From: Escherichia coli
GTDB lineage: Bacteria; Pseudomonadota; Gammaproteobacteria; Enterobacterales; Enterobacteriaceae
Assembly: GCF_003019035.1 (NCBI RefSeq)
Contig: NZ_CP027447.1
DNA: 64,000 nt
Direction: 5' to 3' (one strand)
Part shown: positions 11,321 through 20,100 of the stretch, in pieces
Numbering within the stretch: the stretch's first letter is position 1
Layout: every line of letters begins with the position of its first letter
Position numbers and translations under genes: made by a program
The notes under the pieces: model-generated
Seen by the model: the letters and a program-made list of their open reading frames with translations, nothing else
Databases searched by the model: none
What the model was told of the DNA's origin: nothing

Positions 11321-11730
11321 ATATTTCTCTCTTCTTCAATGTTTTTAATCGCTGTTTCTATTCTTTGTTTTACAAAGTCTCTAAACACATAACCTATTAT
11401 TCGCGCGTCTTCACATATATCTAACTCATCTTTTTTATGAAAATATAAATCAGCGCTTAAAAGCTCTTCGCTTTGAATATTTAACATTTTACTAGCAAGT
11501 GATATTCTAATAATATTTCGCACTTCTAAATCCAAGCTTGCTCTATCATGCTTATTCAAAAGCTGGAGCGGATGAAAATCTTTTTTTCTTTTCATTTCTT
11601 GCATATCATTATCAAAATCTATCATTAAAAAATGTAAGCAAGTAAAAGACGTATCATAGAAGTTTAAGCGGTTCATCATATCCGCCGTTCCCTCTTTTCG
11701 AGGGTTCGGGTTAGGTCTTAATTTATTCAT
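11317..11730 (-). CDS. hypothetical protein
   Basis: 137 aa; no recognisable motif; 4-nt overlap with the downstream ORF. Confidence 0.5.
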   Translation of the reverse strand: MNKLRPNPNPRKEGTADMMNRLNFYDTSFTCLHFLMIDFDNDMQEMKRKKDFHPLQLLNKHDRASLDLEVRNIIRISLASKMLNIQSEELLSADLYFHKKDELDICEDARIIGYVFRDFVKQRIETAIKNIEEERNI

Positions 11731-12064
11731 CTGCTTTACTCCTTTTCTTGTTGTTTTTTAGCTTCCATTCATTCAATCTTTTATCGCCTTCAACTTTTAA
11801 GAACTCACGCTGATCGTGTATTCTTTTCAGTATTAGATTATTAGTTAACGCTCCTACTAACAAAGAAATATCATTCGCAAAATCTAATGTCTCGATGTTA
11901 TTTTCTCTAACTATTCTTATTAGTTCAGCGCCGGCTTTTATTTTACGTGTCGTATCTTTTTTCCTTTCTTCTGCCTTCATTTCTTGCTCCATTCTATTCA
12001 ATAAGTTTGCTCTTTGCTCAATTTCTTTTTTTAATTTATTATATTTTTCTATATTAAACGCCAT
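11723..12064 (-). CDS. hypothetical coiled-coil, Lys/Glu-rich protein
   Basis: 113 aa; highly charged helical sequence; overlaps neighbours (12064/12054, 11730/11723). Confidence 0.5.
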   Translation of the reverse strand: MAFNIEKYNKLKKEIEQRANLLNRMEQEMKAEERKKDTTRKIKAGAELIRIVRENNIETLDFANDISLLVGALTNNLILKRIHDQREFLKVEGDKRLNEWKLKNNKKRSKADE

Positions 12065-12383
12065 TTTCTGAACCTCTCTTTTCTTTTATCGTAATAAAAA
12101 AGGCAATCAACCCACTGATCAATAAAATTGGTAAAGTTAAAATAAACCCTACCAATAACACTAATGAAAATCCGAGCACGCCGGACATCTCATATAGATT
12201 TCCGAACAATGTGCTTTCGTTTTTATACTCAACCATATTCTGTAAAACAGACCTTTTTTCAATATCTTTTTCTTTTAAAGAATCTTCTCTATATTCATAA
12301 TCTTCACAACTCAAAGAAATTTCCACAGTGTTATCATTCAAATACTCATTATCATAATAGTCGTAATCATTATTCCCAATCAT
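12054..12383 (-). CDS. hypothetical membrane protein with acidic Tyr/Asp-rich N-terminus and C-terminal TM segment
   Basis: 109 aa; hydrophobic stretch GVLGFSLVLLVGFILTLPILLISGLIAFFI; overlapping stop/start with both neighbours. Confidence 0.5.
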   Translation of the reverse strand: MIGNNDYDYYDNEYLNDNTVEISLSCEDYEYREDSLKEKDIEKRSVLQNMVEYKNESTLFGNLYEMSGVLGFSLVLLVGFILTLPILLISGLIAFFITIKEKRGSENGV

Positions 12384-12565
12384 TCTAGATCTCCTTCTAA
12401 CGTGTCATAAACAACAGTAAAATCATTCTCATGAGAAAGAAGATTGTAAGTTATAAATAAGCTTGTCCTATAAACAATATCTGTATTTTCATCCTGTAGT
12501 TTTTGAATAATCAACTTAACAAGATCAGACGCTGCCACTTCAATTTTTTTATCAATATCATTCAT
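12380..12565 (-). CDS. hypothetical small protein (first gene of six-gene island operon)
   Basis: 61-aa ORF; stop overlaps the start of the next ORF (12383/12380); divergent from mobA. Confidence 0.45.
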   Translation of the reverse strand: MNDIDKKIEVAASDLVKLIIQKLQDENTDIVYRTSLFITYNLLSHENDFTVVYDTLEGDLE

Positions 12566-12729
12566 GTTCCACCTCTTTTATTTTTTATGATTTCTGTTAT
12601 ATATATTAAGTAATATAATTATTTATTTAAGTAAAGCGCGATATATATTTTTTTGTTTTTAGAACGCATTTTTCAGATAAAAGGCTCACGTGCGGCGGCT
12701 ATTTTAGTTTTGCTAAAAACTACAATAGC

Positions 12730-12762
12730 GCACTTATACATTCTTCGAATGTGTGCGCCCCA
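12730..12762 (+). other. candidate MobQ-type origin of transfer (inverted repeat plus nick-site-like GTGCGCCC)
   Basis: ACATTC-ttcg-GAATGT inverted repeat immediately followed by GTGCGCCC, resembling the RSF1010 oriT arrangement (inverted repeat then TAAGTGCG/CCCT nick region); about 140 bp upstream of mobA. Confidence 0.45.
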
Positions 12763-12901
12763 TAAATGGGGGTTTACTAACGCAGAAAAATAAAAAGTAA
12801 TATTCGCTTTATGCTCAATATTACTTAATCGCTTTTCAAAAAAGCAAATATATTTTTATTATTTTAAAAAGTATGTGTTTCAATATCAGGAGATAAAAAC
12901 A

Positions 12902-14203
12902 ATGGCAATATTTCATATGAGCGCTCAAACAATAACACGCAGCAAGGGGTATAGTAGCGTAGCTGCGGCAGCTTATCGCCACGGCGAAAAGTTAACGGAC
13001 GAACACACAGGAGAGATCCACGACTACAGCAAAAAGAAAGGTGTTTCAGACAGTGTTATATTAATACCTGAAAGCGCAGACCGTAATTTTTTAAAGCCTG
13101 CGTATTTATGGAACATGATAGAAAAAAGCGAAAAAAGAAAAGATGCGCAGTTAGCTCGCGAGTTTAATATTGCGCTTCCTGTCGAAATGACAGATGAACA
13201 AAAAAAGGCGTTAGCAATAGATTTTTGCCAAGAGCATTTTGTAAAAAATGGAATGATTGCTGATATAGCTTTTCACAAGCTCGATAGCGACAACCCACAT
13301 TTTCATGTAATGCTAACCACCCGCAGCCTTACGCCGGACGGTTCAGAGTTCGGACATAAAGTCAGGGAATGGAACAACAAAGAGCAGCTCGAAGGCTGGC
13401 GCAAGAGCTGGGCTGACACAGCGAACGAGCACATGCAAAAGGCTGGCATCGATGCGCATATAGATCACAGATCACTGAAAGAACAAAAAGCAGAGCTTGA
13501 CGCTATCCTCCCCCCTCTCAGAACGATTGAGCAAGAGGCGCAGGCTATCAGCTTAGACAGACCGCCGACTATCCATAGAGGCCATAGCCGCAATCCAGAG
13601 CGACAAGCACGCTTTGACGTGCTCCAAGAAGTGAAAGTATCACAAGAGGAAAAAGCACTTAACCACATTGAACAGAAACAACTTAAGCCCTCGCCGCTGG
13701 CTCCAGCTTCCTCCCCTGCCGCATCTTTGCAAGATGCTACACAAGGAGGCAATGAAAACAACCCGCAAAATAGACTCGGCGAAGTTGGCGAATATCTTCA
13801 ATCTAAACTCAATAAAGAAGATAAAGCAGATCTTAATACTGATAATGAAATCAAAGTTCACACTACTAAAAATAATAGGGAAAGCAGTTCAGCAGCAGCT
13901 ATAGGTTCAACATCAAATATTAATTTAACCGATGAGAAAACAGATAAGAATCTACACTTAACAGAAGCACAAAAAGAAGAGTTAGAGGATTTAGAAAATA
14001 AAGAAGCAGCAGCGAAGAAAAAAGCTTATCTGATGAGCGGAGCTGCCGTTCCTGAACTTTCTCAAGATTACAAAACACTGTCAAAAAGTGAGTTTAAAAA
14101 TAAGCTTCATACAGCTAAACAATCAATATCATTAACTGAAAAGAGATTTAATGAAGAATGTGAAGCATATGATAACAGAAGAAAACGACCAATACCGCGC
14201 TAA
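12902..14203 (+). CDS. mobA: MobA/MobL-family (MobQ-type) conjugative relaxase
   Basis: N-terminus MAIFHMSAQTITRSKGYSSVAAAAYRHGEKL is the characteristic MobA/MobL signature; HFHVML histidine motif present; Ser/Glu/Lys-rich low-complexity C-terminus; AGGAG RBS 8 nt upstream of ATG 12902. Confidence 0.8.
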   Translation: MAIFHMSAQTITRSKGYSSVAAAAYRHGEKLTDEHTGEIHDYSKKKGVSDSVILIPESADRNFLKPAYLWNMIEKSEKRKDAQLAREFNIALPVEMTDEQKKALAIDFCQEHFVKNGMIADIAFHKLDSDNPHFHVMLTTRSLTPDGSEFGHKVREWNNKEQLEGWRKSWADTANEHMQKAGIDAHIDHRSLKEQKAELDAILPPLRTIEQEAQAISLDRPPTIHRGHSRNPERQARFDVLQEVKVSQEEKALNHIEQKQLKPSPLAPASSPAASLQDATQGGNENNPQNRLGEVGEYLQSKLNKEDKADLNTDNEIKVHTTKNNRESSSAAAIGSTSNINLTDEKTDKNLHLTEAQKEELEDLENKEAAAKKKAYLMSGAAVPELSQDYKTLSKSEFKNKLHTAKQSISLTEKRFNEECEAYDNRRKRPIPR

Positions 14204-14563
14204 GTATTTTGCTCATTTTTTATCCCCAATGAATGACTTAGCGTTATATTTACTTTAACTAATTGATACTATTGATTTATTTTCACCTCACGTCGTATCG
14301 TTTATATCGATCAAAATCGACAAAGTGATAGTTAACACCTATCACAACCAATTCATCGATCGATTAAAACAATTAATACACCGATCGATAAACGAGATTT
14401 AATCGTTAAAAACTATCAATATTAAATAATTGATCTGTTATAACGATCATTTTGCTTGAGAGTAGCCCTCCTCATGGTATGCTCGGAGCGTGGAAGACCG
14501 GGCTACTCACCTTGATATCTTCTTGATTAAGCAAAACTATCGCTCTATGAGGAATGAAATTTT

Positions 14564-15058
14564 ATGAAAACCGAAAACATTATTTTTCTTGTTTGGGCAG
14601 TGATTTTTATCCTGATTCTCTGCCAACTTTTTTATTTTGGCCCTAAAAAAAGAAGATACCTCAATACTTATATAGAGGTATTAGATGGTGATGTCCTCTC
14701 ATATGAATGTCAAAATACCGGCGTAGTTATTGATACTAAAAAAAACACAGTACGTATTTTCAATACATATAAGGACAGCACTTTCAAATACGACAACATC
14801 AGGGAAATAAATTATACGCTATCCGAAGCCGGAAAAATTTATAGCACAAGTAATAATCTAAACTCTATGATAAAGTCCGCTGGAGCTAACAGTAATGAAC
14901 AAATGTTAGCTAATCAGCGTTCCGGTATTTTTATACTGACAGATGATATAAAAAATCCTTCATGGAAAATCAATCTACCAATGAAAAACAAAACATCATC
15001 TACCAATCAGGAGATCTGCGATCGATGGCTTCTCATTTTTAAAAAATACGTTTTATAA
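14564..15058 (+). CDS. hypothetical membrane-anchored protein
   Basis: 164 aa; N-terminal hydrophobic helix IIFLVWAVIFILILCQLFYF; AT-rich; no recognisable motif. Confidence 0.5.
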   Translation: MKTENIIFLVWAVIFILILCQLFYFGPKKRRYLNTYIEVLDGDVLSYECQNTGVVIDTKKNTVRIFNTYKDSTFKYDNIREINYTLSEAGKIYSTSNNLNSMIKSAGANSNEQMLANQRSGIFILTDDIKNPSWKINLPMKNKTSSTNQEICDRWLLIFKKYVL

Positions 15059-15090
15059 CTTTGTTTTTTATTTTTATCTTTGGAGTTGAC

Positions 15091-15468
15091 ATGAAAAAAT
15101 TGATTGCGGCAGCATTTATTATTCTCCCTTTAGCAAGTTGTACTGTTTATGGAAACAAATCCATTAAAGACGAAACGCAGCAAAATATAGCCTCTAAAAT
15201 TATAAAAGGTAAAACTACTCAAAAAGATATCCTTCAACTTTATGGAGAACCTCAGACTAAAGAAACTAACGATGGTAAAGAAATGTGGGGATATTCCGTT
15301 ATGTCCGGTGAATCTCAGATTTCAAATTACATACCGGGATTAGCGTTATTGAAGAATAGCAGCACAGCGCACATGAAAGAACTTGAGATCTTGTTTAAAG
15401 GTGATGTAGTTGAACGCTATACCTTTAGACAAACGGCAAGCAAAGCTTCTCGCGGGTTGTTAGATTAA
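15091..15468 (+). CDS. putative lipoprotein
   Basis: Start chosen at ATG 15091 (GGAG RBS upstream); signal peptide MKKLIAAAFIILPLASC with lipobox L-A-S-C; 125 aa. Confidence 0.55.
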   Translation: MKKLIAAAFIILPLASCTVYGNKSIKDETQQNIASKIIKGKTTQKDILQLYGEPQTKETNDGKEMWGYSVMSGESQISNYIPGLALLKNSSTAHMKELEILFKGDVVERYTFRQTASKASRGLLD

Positions 15469-16469
15469 TTTAAATTAAATACCATTTTATCTTTAAAAAG
15501 AAGTTGGAATAGTCCGACTTCTTTTCTATTTTATCAATAACATGCATTATTTATATTAGTGCCTTATGAAATGGCACCTTACTTTTTATATTTCCCTATC
15601 TGGGGGTTTAACCTTTGTTTTTTATTAAAAAAAATTTTGTACTAGTAGTACTAATTAATTAATTTAAAAATTTTTGGTTTTAAGGTTTTGGGGTTTGTGT
15701 TTTAGCGGGGCGGCTTTCAGCCGTAGTAGTTTTCCTCCGAAGGAGGAAATAGTTTTTCTTTAAGCATTCCCCCCCTACCCCCCACGCCAAAAAGGCTAAA
15801 AAAGAGAGATAGGAGATGCTCATTGCGTCTTGAAAATATTCAGAACGTTTCCATTCTGATACTTCCCCCACGACCCACGCAAACACAAATCATGAAACTT
15901 TCAAACAACTCTCGTTTTACTAAAGAGTCTATGCTACTGTTTGTAAATTTTTTAGATTGTGCGATTCAGGTTGGCAGCTACGCATATCCCGGTTAACCGC
16001 TGCCGCAATATTCTAAGTTTCACCAAACACTCGATGTCCTTCGTACTTAGACCTTGATACAACAAGGGTAATATTATATTGCTTTTGTAGATTAAATGTT
16101 TCTGGAAATGGTATTGACATTTTATCTATGTCAAAGTCGGCGAAATTTGTTTAATCATGCAGATTAGAGGCTTCTGGAAGTGGTATTTAATATTAGTTAA
16201 AAGTCGACGAAGCATTTCTAATCTTTTGTATCTTTATATTATATAAATCTATATATAACACCAGTCAATAGATGAAATCAAAAATATTTTAAAAACATGA
16301 CTAGATGAAAAACAAAAAAAGACCAGATTAAACCCCAGTCTCTTTTTTACTTAATATCAGTTATGTTTTTCATATATAGTTCTAAAACGCTCTGTACGCG
16401 ATTTTGAGACGTTTTACACTGGAAGCGGCGTAATCATATAAATAATAAAATAGAATACTGTAATGATTT

Positions 16470-16685
16470 TTATGCCGCTTGATTACGCGAATAAAAAATC
16501 TTATCATCAATCCATTCGTCAACTTCACTTTCAACAAATGCGATAGTTCTTTCACCAGTCTTGATCGGAGAAGGGAAATCACCCCGGCTAATCAGCCGAT
16601 AGATCCACGCTTTACAAAAACCAGTCTTGTTTAACACTTCGGGTATGCGGATAAGTCTTTTTCTTTCGTTCATATATTTCCTCAT
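16470..16685 (-). CDS. AlpA-family phage-type transcriptional regulator / excisionase-like DNA-binding protein
   Basis: 71-aa ORF; RIPEVLNKTGFCKAWIYRLISRGDFPSP resembles the AlpA/Xis helix-turn-helix region. Confidence 0.7.
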   Translation of the reverse strand: MRKYMNERKRLIRIPEVLNKTGFCKAWIYRLISRGDFPSPIKTGERTIAFVESEVDEWIDDKIFYSRNQAA

Positions 16686-17133
16686 AGTTGTTTTGATGAG
16701 GCTATTATTCGAATATCGCTTATGACGATCAACAACTTTTTTAGCAAAAAGTGCTTTTTTAGTTGACTATTTTAAATTAACAGTCATTTAATCACCTTTG
16801 GAAGTTGAACTCATGAGTTCAACTCCTCACCGCTAGTCATGACATTCAAAATGTGCTTATTTTTTAGCCACAATACTTTTTTTATCCCTTTATTGCACCT
16901 CAATGTAAAATACAAATAATTAATATATTTAATAATCAAATGATTAAAGAGTCGATTACAGGGACGCCAGCCAATCATGATTGGACGGTGTAAGGACAAC
17001 ACTAATAAAAACAGGAAGTTAGCAGTCTCAGCAGGACACCGACCAGACGGTGAGGAGACATAAAAGGATACGCAAAGGAGCCGCGGCCCCTGGTGATATG
17101 AAAGCCCACAGATGTGGGCTTTTTCGTTGATGG

Positions 17134-20100
17134 TCAGAACGACCAGTTCACACCAGCCACTGCGTTCCACGGGGATTCCACACCGGCACCATGGCTATAC
17201 CCCACCCCGAGATGCCCGCTTAACGAACTGCTGAATGAGGCTTTAATACCTGCCTGGTATATTCCACGTCTGCCCGACAAATCATTGACAAAATTACCGT
17301 CATTATTCACTTTCACCCGGTTATCATCGACAAATTCTTTGCGCACAGCCGCCTTCAGCCACGGCTCAACTTCCATGCCGTTCCCCAGACGCATGTTGTA
17401 ACTCAGCGTTGCGCCCAGTTCACGATATATACTGCGGGTATCGACTGATTTCGATTCCATGCCATTGGATAAATGATATTCGGGGTTATCAGCGGTGAAC
17501 CCCGTTAACGATGCATACGGCGTCAGGTTCCAGTTACCATCGGTAAATCGCATCCCGGTTTCAATGTGACCGCCCAGCCCGTTGCTGCGATAACTGCCGT
17601 TGGCGGCTCCACCGCTGCTCATTTTACCGGCTACGTTACTTTCAAAGCGGTTCAGCTTCACGATACCGTCCAGATAGAAACCACTTTCATGTTCCCAGCT
17701 GGCATAGCCCCCCAGAGAATAACTGCCCACACTGCCATGTCCTCCACGATCAAAACCGATATGTGAATGGGAATAACCCATAAAAGCGCCCAGCGTCGCA
17801 ATCCCCTCAGGAATATCATTACGGCTATCGATCCCCACCGTCATTCCGGTCAGCGTCTGCTCAAACCCGGCACCCGCATCGGTGGTGACATTATTACGGG
17901 TGTTATACGTCGTCCCCCAGACATTATTGTTGTGTGGACTCGCTTTCATTATGTTCAACCGCTCGCGAATACTGTTTAGCTCAGCATCAAAGACCAACGG
18001 TAATGTTGCTGCCATATTGAGTACGGCTGCCGTAGAAGGCGTGATGCGTTTCTCCGGGACGGGTGTCGGCGTTGGATCGGGAGTCGGGTCTGGTTTCGGA
18101 TCCGGTTTTGGGTCTGGTTTTGGATCCGGCTTCGGATTTGGGTTGGGGTCCGGGTTGGGTTTGACATCATTGGTCAGGTTCCAGTTGCTGTTGCCGTCGC
18201 TTTTCAGGACATACTCATAGGTCCCAAGATCAACGAAACCGCCGGTATTACCCAGCGTAAACGAAGCATCCCCTCCCCCTGTTTTCACCAGCGTCATCGC
18301 GTCGTCAGACTGAGGGCTGACGCCGGTATCCTGAACAAAGATTTTAAAATTACCAGTGGCGTTGTTGTTGACGACCAGTTGATCGCCCCGGGAGCCTGCA
18401 ACGTTGGTATGCAGGTAGAAATTACCGCTGCCGGAAAGTTCACTGGTTGTCAGCGTATTGTAGATACCGTTAGTTGTGGCAGGCGCTGCTGTTTGTGCTG
18501 ATAAATAAACATCACCGTCGTTGAGGAGCAAACTGTTTACTCTATATTCGCAGTTGCTGGTACCTGCACAGGAATTATTGCTGTTAAGCCAGACACTGCC
18601 CCGGCTGGCAGCCGTCAGGTCGGTAAGCGTCGTATCGACGCCATTTCCGATAGTTAATGTCGCGCTATCGGTAATCCGGATCGCCCCTTCGAGTTTAACT
18701 GGCGTAACATTATCCCGTGGCGTCATTAACGACAGGCTTCCTGTCGCGCCACTGACCGATGCATCCGCCAGCGTACCTGCATAGACGATTGCCGTCCCGC
18801 CAGCGACCTGGAGATCTTCTGCCCGGGCCAGAGCCTGAAACTCATCTTTTGACCGCCCAAGGGTATATTGCCCGCCAGAGTTAACCTTTGTGGCGGAGTC
18901 CTGACCCAGGTTTTGCATTGCACCACCCTTGCCAACCTTGGAGTCACGGGCTTCGGTACCTGCTAATACCAATAAATTACCGCCATTTTCCAGCAGCACA
19001 TTGGTCGCTAAATTGCCGGCAATGGAAAAGGTGCCGTACTGGTGAGTACCGCTGATTTCAATACCGTTAGCCGTGCTCGTCTGGAGAGCGGCACCGCTGT
19101 TCTGGACGATATCTGTCGCTTTGCCATTATCGTTGACTGTCAGCGTACCGCCTTCATTGATCGTTGTTTTTATTGCCTCTCCGTTAGCCGAAACTGTTTG
19201 TATTCCGCCGTCGTTAATCGTTGTCTCATTCGCCACACCCTCGACGATTTGTTCGCCGCCGGTGAGCGTCGTGCCTGTCGCAGTGGCTTTTGTTTTGACG
19301 ATCTCCCGCCCGCCCGCATTGACCTGTGTTTTGACGGAAGAGGTGTCTGACTCCACGGTTAACACGCCGCCATTTGTCAGCAGGATATTGTTCGCCGCAC
19401 CCTGCTCGATGCTGAACGCGACGCCATCAGCGCGTGTCCCTGTGACCCGCGTCGCCCTGGTGGTTGCAACCAACGCGCCCTGGCTACTTTGCTGTATCCC
19501 CGTTGCGCTGCCTTTCTCCCGCACATCGAGTGTGCCGCCGTCATTAAGCACCGAGTTTTCAGCCAGACCGCCCTCATTAACTACCTGTGAACCGCCATTA
19601 ATAATGGAACCTTCCGCTGTCCCGTTTACCATAATTTGTTGTAGGCCAGAGACGATATCGGTATTGATCGCCTTACCATAATTCTGAACGGTTTGCGTAC
19701 CGCCATTGATGTGCGTTTTGTCTGTTGACCCACCATCAACAATTTGTTCACCACTTTCGATATTTGCCTCAGTGGCTAAACCATATACCGTTTGCTTGCC
19801 ACCTTTGATATTTGCTTTATCAGAAGTGGCACTGGCATATATTGTTTGGGTACCCGCACTATTGAGTACAGTGCCAACATCTTTTCCATAAACATCCATT
19901 TTACCGTTGGCATTAATAATCGTATCAACTGCCCGGGAACCAGTAACGACTGTTAATGAGCCAGCGTTTTCCAGCACTACATTTTTAGCTTCTGAATTCC
20001 TGATGTAGAAAGCATCACCATAACTGTTGGTTCCTTCGATAAGTGTTCCGGAAGTCGTGGAAGCAATTAATGCGCCGCCGGATTGTTGCTCAACATGCTT

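What the first reader, a model, noticed from the sequence alone, without database searches (positions are those of the whole stretch)
18040..18175. Hexanucleotide tandem repeat encoding the PD/PK linker of the YpjA-like autotransporter
Plus-strand periodic GGnTCnGGnTTy units encode PNPDPNPNPKPDPKPDPKPDPKPDPTPDPTPTPVP between passenger and beta-barrel. Such in-frame short tandem repeats are prone to slipped-strand expansion or contraction, giving linker-length polymorphism between strains.
Basis: seen in the sequence. Interest (0 to 1): 0.3.

Follow-up and report, generated by a model that had tools for sequence, protein, structure and literature searches.

The report
Proline-rich spacer repeat in YpjA adhesin
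This is an ordinary proline-rich spacer in the known E. coli surface adhesin YpjA, encoded by a degenerate DNA repeat, whose length differs between strains in steps of two amino acids (36, 38 or 40) but stays fixed within lineages.

Summary
On the minus strand, window 18055-18162 encodes (X-Pro)18, KPNPDPNPNPKPDPKPDPKPDPKPDPTPDPTPTPVP. These are residues 1181-1216 of ypjA/ehaD (CDS 17134-21702, 95% identical to K-12 YpjA).

The tract lies between the pertactin-like autochaperone and the pore-spanning helix plus 12-stranded barrel. AlphaFold gives it no structure.

The prediction of length polymorphism is supported. Among 2,524 ypjA-positive complete E. coli genomes the linker is 36 aa (about 30%), 38 aa (about 51%, K-12) or 40 aa (about 15%, O157:H7). 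All indels lie inside the tract and are multiples of 6 nt. Two are exact tandem duplications (CCCAACCCAAAT; GACCCA).

Two qualifications apply:
- The window allele is not a clean hexanucleotide repeat. It has period 12/24 at 78-84% identity and no perfect tandem copy.
- It is stable. 1,282 genomes carry the K-12-type stretch at >=99% identity, which excludes any 6-nt indel.

A paralogue at the minE/ycgV locus, not in the window, has a pure (NP)n linker of 48-88 aa. It is built of perfect 6- and 12-nt runs and varies among near-identical strains, which is what slippage predicts.

The feature is a known kind (compare the TibA proline-rich domain and the pertactin PQP repeats). Interest is low.

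The parts
17134..21702 (-). ypjA/ehaD coding sequence (1522 aa plus stop), a classical type Va autotransporter adhesin
   Evidence: ORF list and translation. PGAP annotation of identical DNA in FDAARGOS_497 gives a 4569-nt CDS. 95% identical to K-12 YpjA. Pfam AIDA x8, Pertactin and Autotransporter domains.
21616..21702 (-). Predicted signal peptide, aa 1-29 (MNRTSPYYCRRSVLSLLISALIYAPPGMA)
   Evidence: The sequence is read directly. The 29-aa length is the one listed for the YpjA signal peptide in PMC13101318. No signal-peptide predictor was run.
18541..21615 (-). Beta-helical passenger with AIDA-type repeats (aa 30-1054)
   Evidence: Pfam PF16168 AIDA, 8 stretches, E 4e-139. NCBIfam TIGR04415 strand-loop-strand repeat, 8 stretches.
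18172..18540 (-). Pertactin-like C-terminal passenger domain, also called the autochaperone or junction region (aa 1055-1177)
   Evidence: Pfam PF03212, E 5e-45. Sequence match to pertactin 1DAB. The beta-helix in the model runs up to fragment residue 176.
18055..18162 (-). The finding: an (X-Pro)18 linker, KPNPDPNPNPKPDPKPDPKPDPKPDPTPDPTPTPVP (aa 1181-1216)
   Evidence: AlphaFold2 gives pLDDT <50 and no secondary structure at fragment residues 181-214. Compositional hits to Trypan_PARP and TonB, both below their curated cut-offs.
18074..18137 (-). Core of the DNA repeat, period 12 (KPDP unit) and period 24, imperfect
   Evidence: Tandem Repeats Finder rows. Self-identity values.
17941..18039 (-). 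Alpha-helical segment predicted to span the barrel pore (aa 1222-1254)
   Evidence: Helix H221-253 in the AlphaFold2 model. The BrkA translocator 3QQ2 aligns from this point on.
17140..17928 (-). 12-stranded outer-membrane beta-barrel translocator (aa 1259-1521)
   Evidence: Pfam PF03797, E 8e-46. The model shows 12 strands. Foldseek top hits are BrkA, EspP, Hbp, AIDA-I and NalP translocators.
17882..18220 (+). Antisense 112-aa ORF across the repeat. It is a by-product of the GGN-rich complement of CCN codons, not a gene.
   Evidence: Listed mechanically. It lies entirely inside and opposite the ypjA CDS, and no genome annotation calls it.

Best explanation
The tract is an in-frame, degenerate coding repeat that encodes a spacer of alternating X-Pro residues in the surface adhesin YpjA/EhaD.

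The spacer lies outside the cell. It sits between the last folded part of the passenger (the pertactin-like autochaperone) and the alpha-helix that plugs the 12-stranded barrel.

Inferred function: it adopts an extended, polyproline-II-like, non-globular conformation. That would hold the beta-helical passenger away from the outer-membrane surface by roughly 11 nm for 36 residues, at about 3.1 A per residue if fully extended.

Inferred mechanism: the spacer changes length when whole 6- or 12-nt units are gained or lost by replication slippage, or by unequal sister-strand exchange, which these data cannot tell apart. This always keeps the reading frame and the X-Pro register.

Shown: in this gene synonymous codon variety has removed all perfect tandem copies. 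Such events are therefore rare, and the three lengths (36, 38, 40 aa) behave as stable lineage markers rather than as a fast switch.
For: Anatomy:
- Pfam domain order AIDA repeats, Pertactin, gap, Autotransporter.
- The AlphaFold2 model (mean pLDDT 84) puts a coil with pLDDT <50 exactly on the tract, between the beta-helix and a 33-residue helix followed by 12 strands.
- Foldseek matches BrkA, EspP, Hbp, AIDA-I and NalP translocators and pertactin.

Polymorphism:
- The matched span in complete E. coli genomes is 341, 347 or 353 nt in two evenly spaced ('spread') samples of 60 records each.
- The translated linkers are 36, 38 and 40 aa.
- All gaps fall inside the tract, are multiples of 6 nt, and the flanks align without gaps.

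Unit events:
- The O157/NCTC9112 allele equals the window allele plus an exact tandem copy of CCCAACCCAAAT.
- O9:H10 Res13 equals the K-12 allele plus an exact tandem copy of GACCCA and is otherwise 100% identical. Four listed genomes match this derived allele at 100%, and 5 records fall in the >=99% band.

Low rate:
- 1,282 records hold the K-12-type 347-nt stretch at >=99% identity, which excludes any 6-nt indel. Only 33 fall in the 95-99% band.
- All sampled K-12 derivatives give 347 nt and all sampled O157:H7 give 353 nt.

Dependence on repeat purity:
- ypjA alleles have 0-24 nt of perfect tandem tract and span 36-40 aa.
- The paralogue at the minE locus has 36-108 nt of perfect tract and linkers of 48-88 aa.
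- In that paralogue (AACCCAAATCCG)n and (AATCCA)m vary independently among near-identical genes.

Dispensable for secretion: the paralogue YejO joins the same two conserved flanks with about 5 residues and no proline tract.

Family-wide feature: homologues from E. albertii, Citrobacter, Salmonella, Klebsiella and Buttiauxella carry proline-rich tracts of 5-31 aa ending 304-333 residues from the C-terminus.
Against: - No experiment here shows the conformation or the function of the linker. Low pLDDT is compatible with a rigid polyproline-II rod and with a floppy tether alike.
- Slippage cannot be separated from unequal recombination using end-point sequences.
- The three major alleles also differ by many linked substitutions (about 94% identity over 341 nt). 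Some length differences may therefore have arrived by recombination of whole allele segments rather than arising in place.
- Allele frequencies come from two samples of 60 records plus identity-band counts, not from a full census.
Confidence: 0.8

Rival explanations
1. Length differences at ypjA arise mainly by homologous recombination or gene conversion, either between strains or with the paralogous autotransporter at the minE/ycgV locus. On this view they do not arise by slippage within the tract.
For: - The two loci share a nearly identical distal linker (GACCCG ACTCCC GATCCA ACGCCG ACACCC GTTCCG) and barrel. A 585-nt probe from the paralogue matches ypjA in nearly all ypjA-positive genomes at 90-95% identity.
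- The 36-, 38- and 40-aa classes differ by many linked substitutions.
Against: - Exact tandem duplications occur on otherwise identical backgrounds: K-12 against O9:H10, with 100% identity apart from GACCCA, and (AATCCA)6 against (AATCCA)7 in the paralogue.
- No ypjA allele carries the paralogue's (NP)n block.
Confidence: 0.12
2. The tract is an antigenic or ligand-binding element whose repeat number is driven by immune or host selection, as has been proposed for the pertactin repeat regions R1 and R2. On this view it is not a passive spacer.
For: - Pertactin carries proline-rich repeat loops, (GGXXP)1-3 and (PQP)2-8, whose changes have been linked to vaccination (PMC12994607).
- The tract is surface-exposed in the model.
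Against: - Only three lengths dominate about 2,500 genomes and each is stable within lineages, which is not the pattern of ongoing diversifying selection.
- YejO lacks the tract altogether.
- No binding data exist.
Confidence: 0.06
3. The tract is a contingency locus, meaning a phase-variable on/off switch operated by frameshifting.
For: It is a short tandem repeat inside an adhesin gene. ypjA and its paralogue are often annotated as pseudogenes.
Against: - All 17 sequenced linker tracts are multiples of 6 nt.
- The one frameshift whose position was located, a 1-nt deletion in HCP5S3_I2, lies downstream of the repeat. The positions of the other annotated lesions were not mapped.
- A unit of 6 nt cannot shift the frame.
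Confidence: 0.01
4. The length variation is an assembly or sequencing artefact in a low-complexity region.
For: Repeats are error-prone in long-read assemblies. One genome shows a 1-nt deletion nearby.
Against: Each length class is seen in hundreds to more than a thousand independent complete genomes. It is also constant across dozens of independent K-12 and O157:H7 assemblies.
Confidence: 0.01

Closest known systems
TibA proline-rich domain (E. coli self-associating autotransporter)
   Same: The position in the architecture is the same. [quoted passage not shown] Both proteins are AIDA-type type Va adhesins.
   Different: Sequence relatedness of the two proline tracts was not tested here. Length polymorphism of the TibA tract was not examined.
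Bordetella pertactin repeat regions R1 (GGXXP)n and R2 (PQP)n
   Same: These are proline-rich, in-frame tandem repeats in a type Va autotransporter whose copy number differs between strains and species (PMC12994607). The YpjA autochaperone matches pertactin in sequence and in fold.
   Different: R1 and R2 are loops protruding from the beta-helix of a cleaved passenger. The YpjA tract is a linear connector after the last folded passenger element. The units also differ: 15 and 9 nt in pertactin against 6 and 12 nt here.
TonB (EP)n(KP)n rod and trypanosome procyclin (EP/DP) repeats
   Same: Both have alternating X-Pro with charged residues. The YpjA tract gives weak compositional hits to both profiles (Pfam Trypan_PARP E 2.6e-7; NCBIfam TonB E 7.6e-4). 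From established knowledge, these sequences form extended, fairly rigid spacers.
   Different: Both hits are far below the curated cut-offs (31 bits against 100, and 19 against 315). The resemblance is compositional and does not indicate homology. The cellular location is also different: periplasm for TonB and a eukaryotic surface coat for procyclin.
Periscope proteins (variable-length stalks of bacterial surface proteins)
   Same: The concept is shared: repeat-number variation in DNA changes how far an adhesive domain is held from the cell surface (PMC9704523).
   Different: Periscope proteins are defined by highly identical tandem repeats of independently folding domains. The YpjA tract is a low-complexity, non-domain tract of 2-aa units, and at ypjA the length range is only 36-40 aa.
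ypjA-annotated paralogue at the minE-ymgJ (ycgV) locus
   Same: It has the same domain order, an identical distal linker (DPTPDPTPTPVP) and the same barrel. It is annotated YpjA/EhaD by PGAP.
   Different: - Its passenger is shorter (about 1,120-1,155 aa in total).
- Its linker is pure (NP)n of 48-88 aa built of perfect 6- and 12-nt runs.
- It is hypervariable among closely related strains.
- It is present in only about 226 of 5,426 complete genomes.
- It is not in the window.

Membership tests
Classical (type Va) autotransporter, AIDA-I-type adhesin | C-terminal 12-stranded beta-barrel translocator (PF03797) with a pore-spanning alpha-helix | tested here: met
   Pfam PF03797, E 8e-46. The AlphaFold2 model shows a helix followed by 12 strands. 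Foldseek hits BrkA 3QQ2 (E 2e-22), EspP, Hbp, AIDA-I 4MEE and NalP.
Classical (type Va) autotransporter, AIDA-I-type adhesin | Beta-helical passenger with AIDA repeats and a C-terminal autochaperone (pertactin-like) domain | tested here: met
   PF16168 x8, E 4e-139, and PF03212, E 5e-45. Sequence match to pertactin 1DAB.
Classical (type Va) autotransporter, AIDA-I-type adhesin | N-terminal Sec signal peptide | not tested
   The N-terminus MNRTSPYYCRRSVLSLLISALIYAPPGMA looks like a signal peptide, and PMC13101318 lists a 29-aa YpjA signal peptide. No predictor was run.
YpjA/EhaD orthologue | Full-length high identity to E. coli K-12 YpjA (b2647) | tested here: met
   1455/1526 residues identical (95%) with 4 gap positions, 2 of them in the linker.
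YpjA/EhaD orthologue | Same chromosomal neighbourhood (ssrA side, ypjCB side) | tested here: met
   In FDAARGOS_497 the order is smpB-ssrA-ypjA-ypjCB. In the window and in SCU-301 an island with mobQ lies between ssrA and ypjA, while ypjCB is on the other side.
Slippage-prone coding tandem repeat (VNTR) | Head-to-tail copies of a unit with high DNA identity | tested here: inconclusive
   Tandem Repeats Finder detects period 12 (78% matches) and period 24 (84%). The window allele nevertheless has no perfect tandem copy, and its longest exact repeat is 11 nt.
Slippage-prone coding tandem repeat (VNTR) | Copy number differs between strains by whole units | tested here: met
   Linkers of 36, 38 and 40 aa. 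All indels are multiples of 6 nt. Exact tandem duplications of 12 nt and 6 nt are seen.
Slippage-prone coding tandem repeat (VNTR) | Variation among closely related isolates (high mutation rate) | tested here: not met
   At ypjA, 1,282 records match at >=99% identity with identical length. All sampled K-12 give 347 nt and all sampled O157:H7 give 353 nt. The feature is met only by the paralogue at the minE locus.
Phase-variable contingency locus | Repeat-unit changes shift the reading frame and switch expression on or off | tested here: not met
   The unit is 6 nt. All 17 tracts examined are multiples of 6 nt.
Periscope proteins | Stalk made of highly identical tandem repeats of independently folding domains | tested here: not met
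   The tract is (X-Pro)n with no predicted structure. The definition is taken from PMC9704523.
Generic E. coli MLVA marker loci (GECM-10: CVN001-017, CCR001) | The published primer pair flanks the repeat | tested here: not met
   None of the 20 primers (PMC8143711) maps, with up to 3 mismatches, to ypjA or to the paralogue loci with 5-6 kb of flank. The only near match is CVN016R at window 61351.

The most novel reading that the evidence does not exclude
The proline-rich linker could be a tunable stalk for classical autotransporters, a low-complexity counterpart of periscope proteins. On this reading E. coli keeps one copy, ypjA, at a length frozen by codon degeneracy. A second copy at the ycgV locus has a pure (NP)n tract that is kept perfect. 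Slippage can then quickly re-tune how far the adhesin reaches past the O-antigen or capsule, over roughly 15-27 nm if the tract is extended. Linker length would then co-vary with surface polysaccharide type.
Probability: 0.2. Interest if true: 0.45.

Novelty: new member of a known kind. Interest (0 to 1): 0.2.

Why it matters
The practical consequences are small.
- The ypjA linker length (36, 38 or 40 aa) is a stable lineage marker, not a fast-evolving site.
- Anyone who uses YpjA as a surface-display scaffold, or who compares YpjA/EhaD alleles, should expect 2-aa steps at this position.

The contrast between ypjA and its paralogue is more useful. The same protein segment is encoded once by a degenerate repeat that is stable and once by a perfect repeat that is hypervariable. 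That makes a clean natural illustration that repeat purity at the DNA level sets mutability, not the peptide repeat. It also offers a ready-made allelic series for testing whether spacer length affects adhesin function.

Tried and rejected
- Exact-sequence look-up of the window YpjA and of two paralogue proteins in the 15-billion-protein collection found none of them. Cluster member lengths could therefore not be used.
- The homologue search on the C-terminal 521 aa returned mostly YejO-like and partial proteins rather than full YpjA clusters. It served for linker comparison across genera and for the structure alignment, but not for E. coli allele counts.
- I tested whether the repeat, or the hypervariable paralogue, is one of the generic E. 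coli MLVA loci (CVN014/015/016/017 have 6-bp units). The primers do not map there, so this was rejected.
- Literature searches for ypjA/EhaD/ycgV combined with proline-rich, tandem-repeat or polymorphism terms found no description of this linker's variation. Drobnak et al. 2015 (PMC4275399), on autotransporter linker nomenclature, is not held.
- ARAGORN found no tmRNA or tRNA in window 14000-24000. The window therefore differs from FDAARGOS_497 downstream of ypjA, and this is explained by an inserted island.
- The promoter and terminator scan listed terminator-like hairpins at 18096-18117 and 18131-18154 on the plus strand inside the repeat. They lie antisense to a long CDS and arise from the GGN/TTT-rich complement, so they were rejected as functional sites.
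- The plus-strand ORF 17882-18220 was rejected as an antisense artefact.
Full report
**What is there.** The region 18040-18175 lies inside a 1,565-codon minus-strand ORF, 17134-21831. Translation gives ...NSNWNLTNDV-KPNPDPNPNPKPDPKPDPKPDPKPDPTPDPTPTPVP-EKRITPSTAAVLNMAA.... Counting from the ATG at 21702, the start that PGAP uses for identical DNA in strain FDAARGOS_497, the tract is residues 1181-1216, or window 18055-18162.

The pattern is not chance. There are 18 consecutive X-Pro units, against a maximum of 4 in 5,000 shuffles of the protein. Proline makes up 50% of the tract and 1.1% of the rest of the protein.

At the DNA level the repeat is real but degenerate:
- Tandem Repeats Finder reports period 12 (4.5 copies, 78% matches) and period 24 (2.3 copies, 84%) at 18074-18137.
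- Self-identity is 0.57 at period 6, 0.67 at period 12 and 0.68 at period 24.
- The longest exact internal repeat is 11 nt.
- No unit is repeated perfectly in tandem.

'Hexanucleotide' therefore describes the codon pair (NNN-CCN) and not a clean microsatellite.

**What gene it is.** Pfam finds eight AIDA repeats, a Pertactin domain (aa 1055-1177) and the Autotransporter beta-domain (aa 1261-1500). NCBIfam agrees. The protein is 95% identical over its full length to K-12 YpjA, and two of the four gap positions fall in the linker. PGAP names the matching genes 'adhesin-like autotransporter YpjA/EhaD'. The neighbours are ssrA on one side and ypjCB on the other. In the window an island carrying a mobQ relaxase is inserted between ssrA and ypjA. 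The gene is therefore ypjA itself.

**Where the tract sits.** An AlphaFold2 model of the last 521 residues (31-sequence alignment, mean pLDDT 84, pTM 0.77) shows four parts in order:
- beta-helix up to fragment residue 176;
- a coil with pLDDT <50 at 181-214, which is the tract (fragment residues 180-215);
- a helix at 221-253;
- 12 beta-strands.

Foldseek against the PDB returns the BrkA, EspP, Hbp, AIDA-I and NalP translocators, and pertactin for the N-terminal part. Sequence search gives the same families. The tract therefore connects the autochaperone to the pore helix on the extracellular side.

**Is the length polymorphic?** Yes. A 341-nt probe across the tract matches 2,524 of 5,426 complete E. 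coli genomes. In two evenly spaced ('spread') samples of 60 records each, the matched span had these values:

| Span | | |
|---|---|---|
| 341 nt | 19 | 17 |
| 347 nt | 31 | 30 |
| 353 nt | 8 | 10 |
| paralogue-locus spans (425, 389, 479 nt) | 1 | 2 |
| IS-truncated copy | 1 | 1 |

The sequences retrieved give these linkers:
- 36 aa: the window.
- 38 aa: K-12, and independently CEC08123.
- 40 aa: O157:H7, NCTC9112, CUVET16-321 and O9:H10 Res13.

In the DNA alignment every gap lies inside the tract and is a multiple of 6 nt, and the flanks align without gaps. Two events are unambiguous unit duplications:
- O157/NCTC9112 carry CCCAACCCAAAT twice in tandem where the window has it once.
- O9:H10 Res13 is the K-12 allele with GACCCA duplicated and is otherwise 100% identical. 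Four listed genomes match this derived allele at 100%, and five records fall in the >=99% band.

**How fast does it change?** Slowly at this locus. 1,282 records match the K-12-type 347-nt stretch at >=99% identity. A 6-nt indel would lower identity to 98.3%, and only 33 records lie in the 95-99% band. All sampled K-12 derivatives give 347 nt and all sampled O157:H7 give 353 nt. The 341-nt class keeps its length across alleles that have diverged to 97.4% identity. These are lineage-stable alleles, not a hypermutable site.

**A natural control.** Some genomes hold a second gene annotated ypjA, between minE and ymgJ, the position of ycgV in K-12. About 226 genomes match its probe at >=95% identity. 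Its distal linker and barrel are nearly identical to those of ypjA. The proximal linker, however, is pure (NP)n built of perfect runs.

Sequenced examples have linkers of 48, 52, 64, 66, 68, 76, 78, 80, 82, 86 and 88 aa. Their perfect tandem tracts are 36-108 nt long. Spans in the top 60 hits imply further lengths, including 50, 54, 56, 58, 60 and 62 aa. Near-identical genes differ by one (AATCCA) unit, 6 against 7 copies. Among porcine ETEC strains, (AACCCAAATCCG)6-8 and (AATCCA)8-15 vary independently.

The same peptide segment is thus encoded once by degenerate codons, where it is stable, and once by perfect repeats, where it is hypervariable. Replication slippage predicts exactly this contrast.

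**Function (inferred).** The tract is not needed for secretion as such. The paralogue YejO joins the same conserved flanks (…NHSWSLAENRAQITPST…) without any proline tract. Proline-rich tracts of 5-31 aa do occur at the same distance from the C-terminus (304-333 residues) in homologues from E. albertii, Citrobacter, Salmonella, Klebsiella aerogenes and Buttiauxella. E. albertii itself shows variants of 17, 19, 29 and 31 aa.

TibA is described as having 'an additional proline-rich domain' between the junction region and the membrane domain (PMC3835316). Weak compositional hits to procyclin and TonB profiles recall known extended X-Pro spacers.

The most likely role is an extended spacer that holds the beta-helix off the membrane. 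That would be about 11 nm for 36 residues at 3.1 A per residue if fully extended, a figure taken from general knowledge of polyproline-II geometry. Nothing here tests this role directly.

**Rivals.**
- Recombination with the paralogue or between strains may move alleles around, since linked SNPs distinguish the classes. It cannot explain tandem duplications on identical backgrounds.
- Immune-driven variation, as proposed for pertactin R1/R2 (PMC12994607), is not supported by the three stable lengths.
- A frameshift switch is excluded, because all 17 tracts are multiples of 6 nt.
- An assembly artefact is excluded by replication across hundreds of genomes.

**Novelty.** The gene, the architecture and the phenomenon are all known kinds. 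I found no paper that describes linker-length variation in ypjA or in the ycgV-locus paralogue. The generic E. coli MLVA primers do not target either locus. The finding is best filed as a new, unremarkable member of a known kind. Interest is 0.2.

Noticed in passing
Not in the window. Loci L003, L008, L009, L011, L012 and L016-L022 (minE-ymgJ / ycgV locus of other E. coli genomes): A second 'ypjA'-annotated autotransporter, present in about 226 complete genomes. Its (NP)n linker ranges from 48 to 88 aa. Two perfect sub-arrays, (AACCCAAATCCG)n and (AATCCA)m, vary independently among near-identical strains. It is not targeted by the GECM-10 MLVA primers. It is often pseudogenised: frameshift in EC556, internal stop in O17_K12a, and a 1-nt deletion in HCP5S3_I2.
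   Followed up: yes
L004 position about 754 (E. coli F765), equivalent to window about 18092: An IS1203 (IS3-family) element is inserted inside the proline-rich linker of ypjA. Only the barrel-encoding 3' part of the gene remains.
   Followed up: partly
L002 (E. coli O157:H7 FRIK944): ypjA/ehaD is annotated as a frameshifted pseudogene in this O157:H7 genome. The linker region itself is intact at 40 aa.
   Followed up: no
Proteins P0006 and P0011 (E. coli): In these variants the whole pertactin/autochaperone domain is missing and the passenger joins the linker directly (…EDLQVAGGT|PNPNPNPNPDPTPEPTPTPVPEKR…). This may be a real deletion or an assembly artefact.
   Followed up: no
window 21767-21886 (-): A 39-aa ORF lies just upstream of ypjA. 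It is annotated as a hypothetical protein at both the ypjA locus (WP_001120794.1) and the paralogue locus (WP_001131446.1). It has no Pfam match. It overlaps the spurious GTG-extended start of the long ORF.
   Followed up: partly
window about 11500-16965: An island carrying a MobQ relaxase, a DUF4755 fragment and a helix-turn-helix regulator lies next to the 3' end of ypjA. In FDAARGOS_497 the same position holds ssrA directly. Only one complete genome, SCU-301, shares the whole 13-kb stretch at 99.7%. No tmRNA or tRNA was found in 14000-24000.
   Followed up: partly
window 18541-21615 (-): The passenger repeats match NCBIfam TIGR04415, the strand-loop-strand repeat named as an O-heptosylation target in AIDA-I-type adhesins (8 stretches, E 5e-72). 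No heptosyltransferase gene was seen in the annotated neighbourhood.
   Followed up: no
window 22638-23687 (-): A 349-aa ORF upstream of ypjA matches DUF5508 (E 6e-145). It corresponds to ypjCB, which is annotated as a pseudogene with a frameshift or internal stop in related genomes.
   Followed up: no
window about 61351 (-): A near match (2 mismatches) to MLVA primer CVN016R. It looks like the 5' end of a tRNA-Ser-type gene, so the CVN016 VNTR locus or a relative may lie near that end of the window.
   Followed up: no
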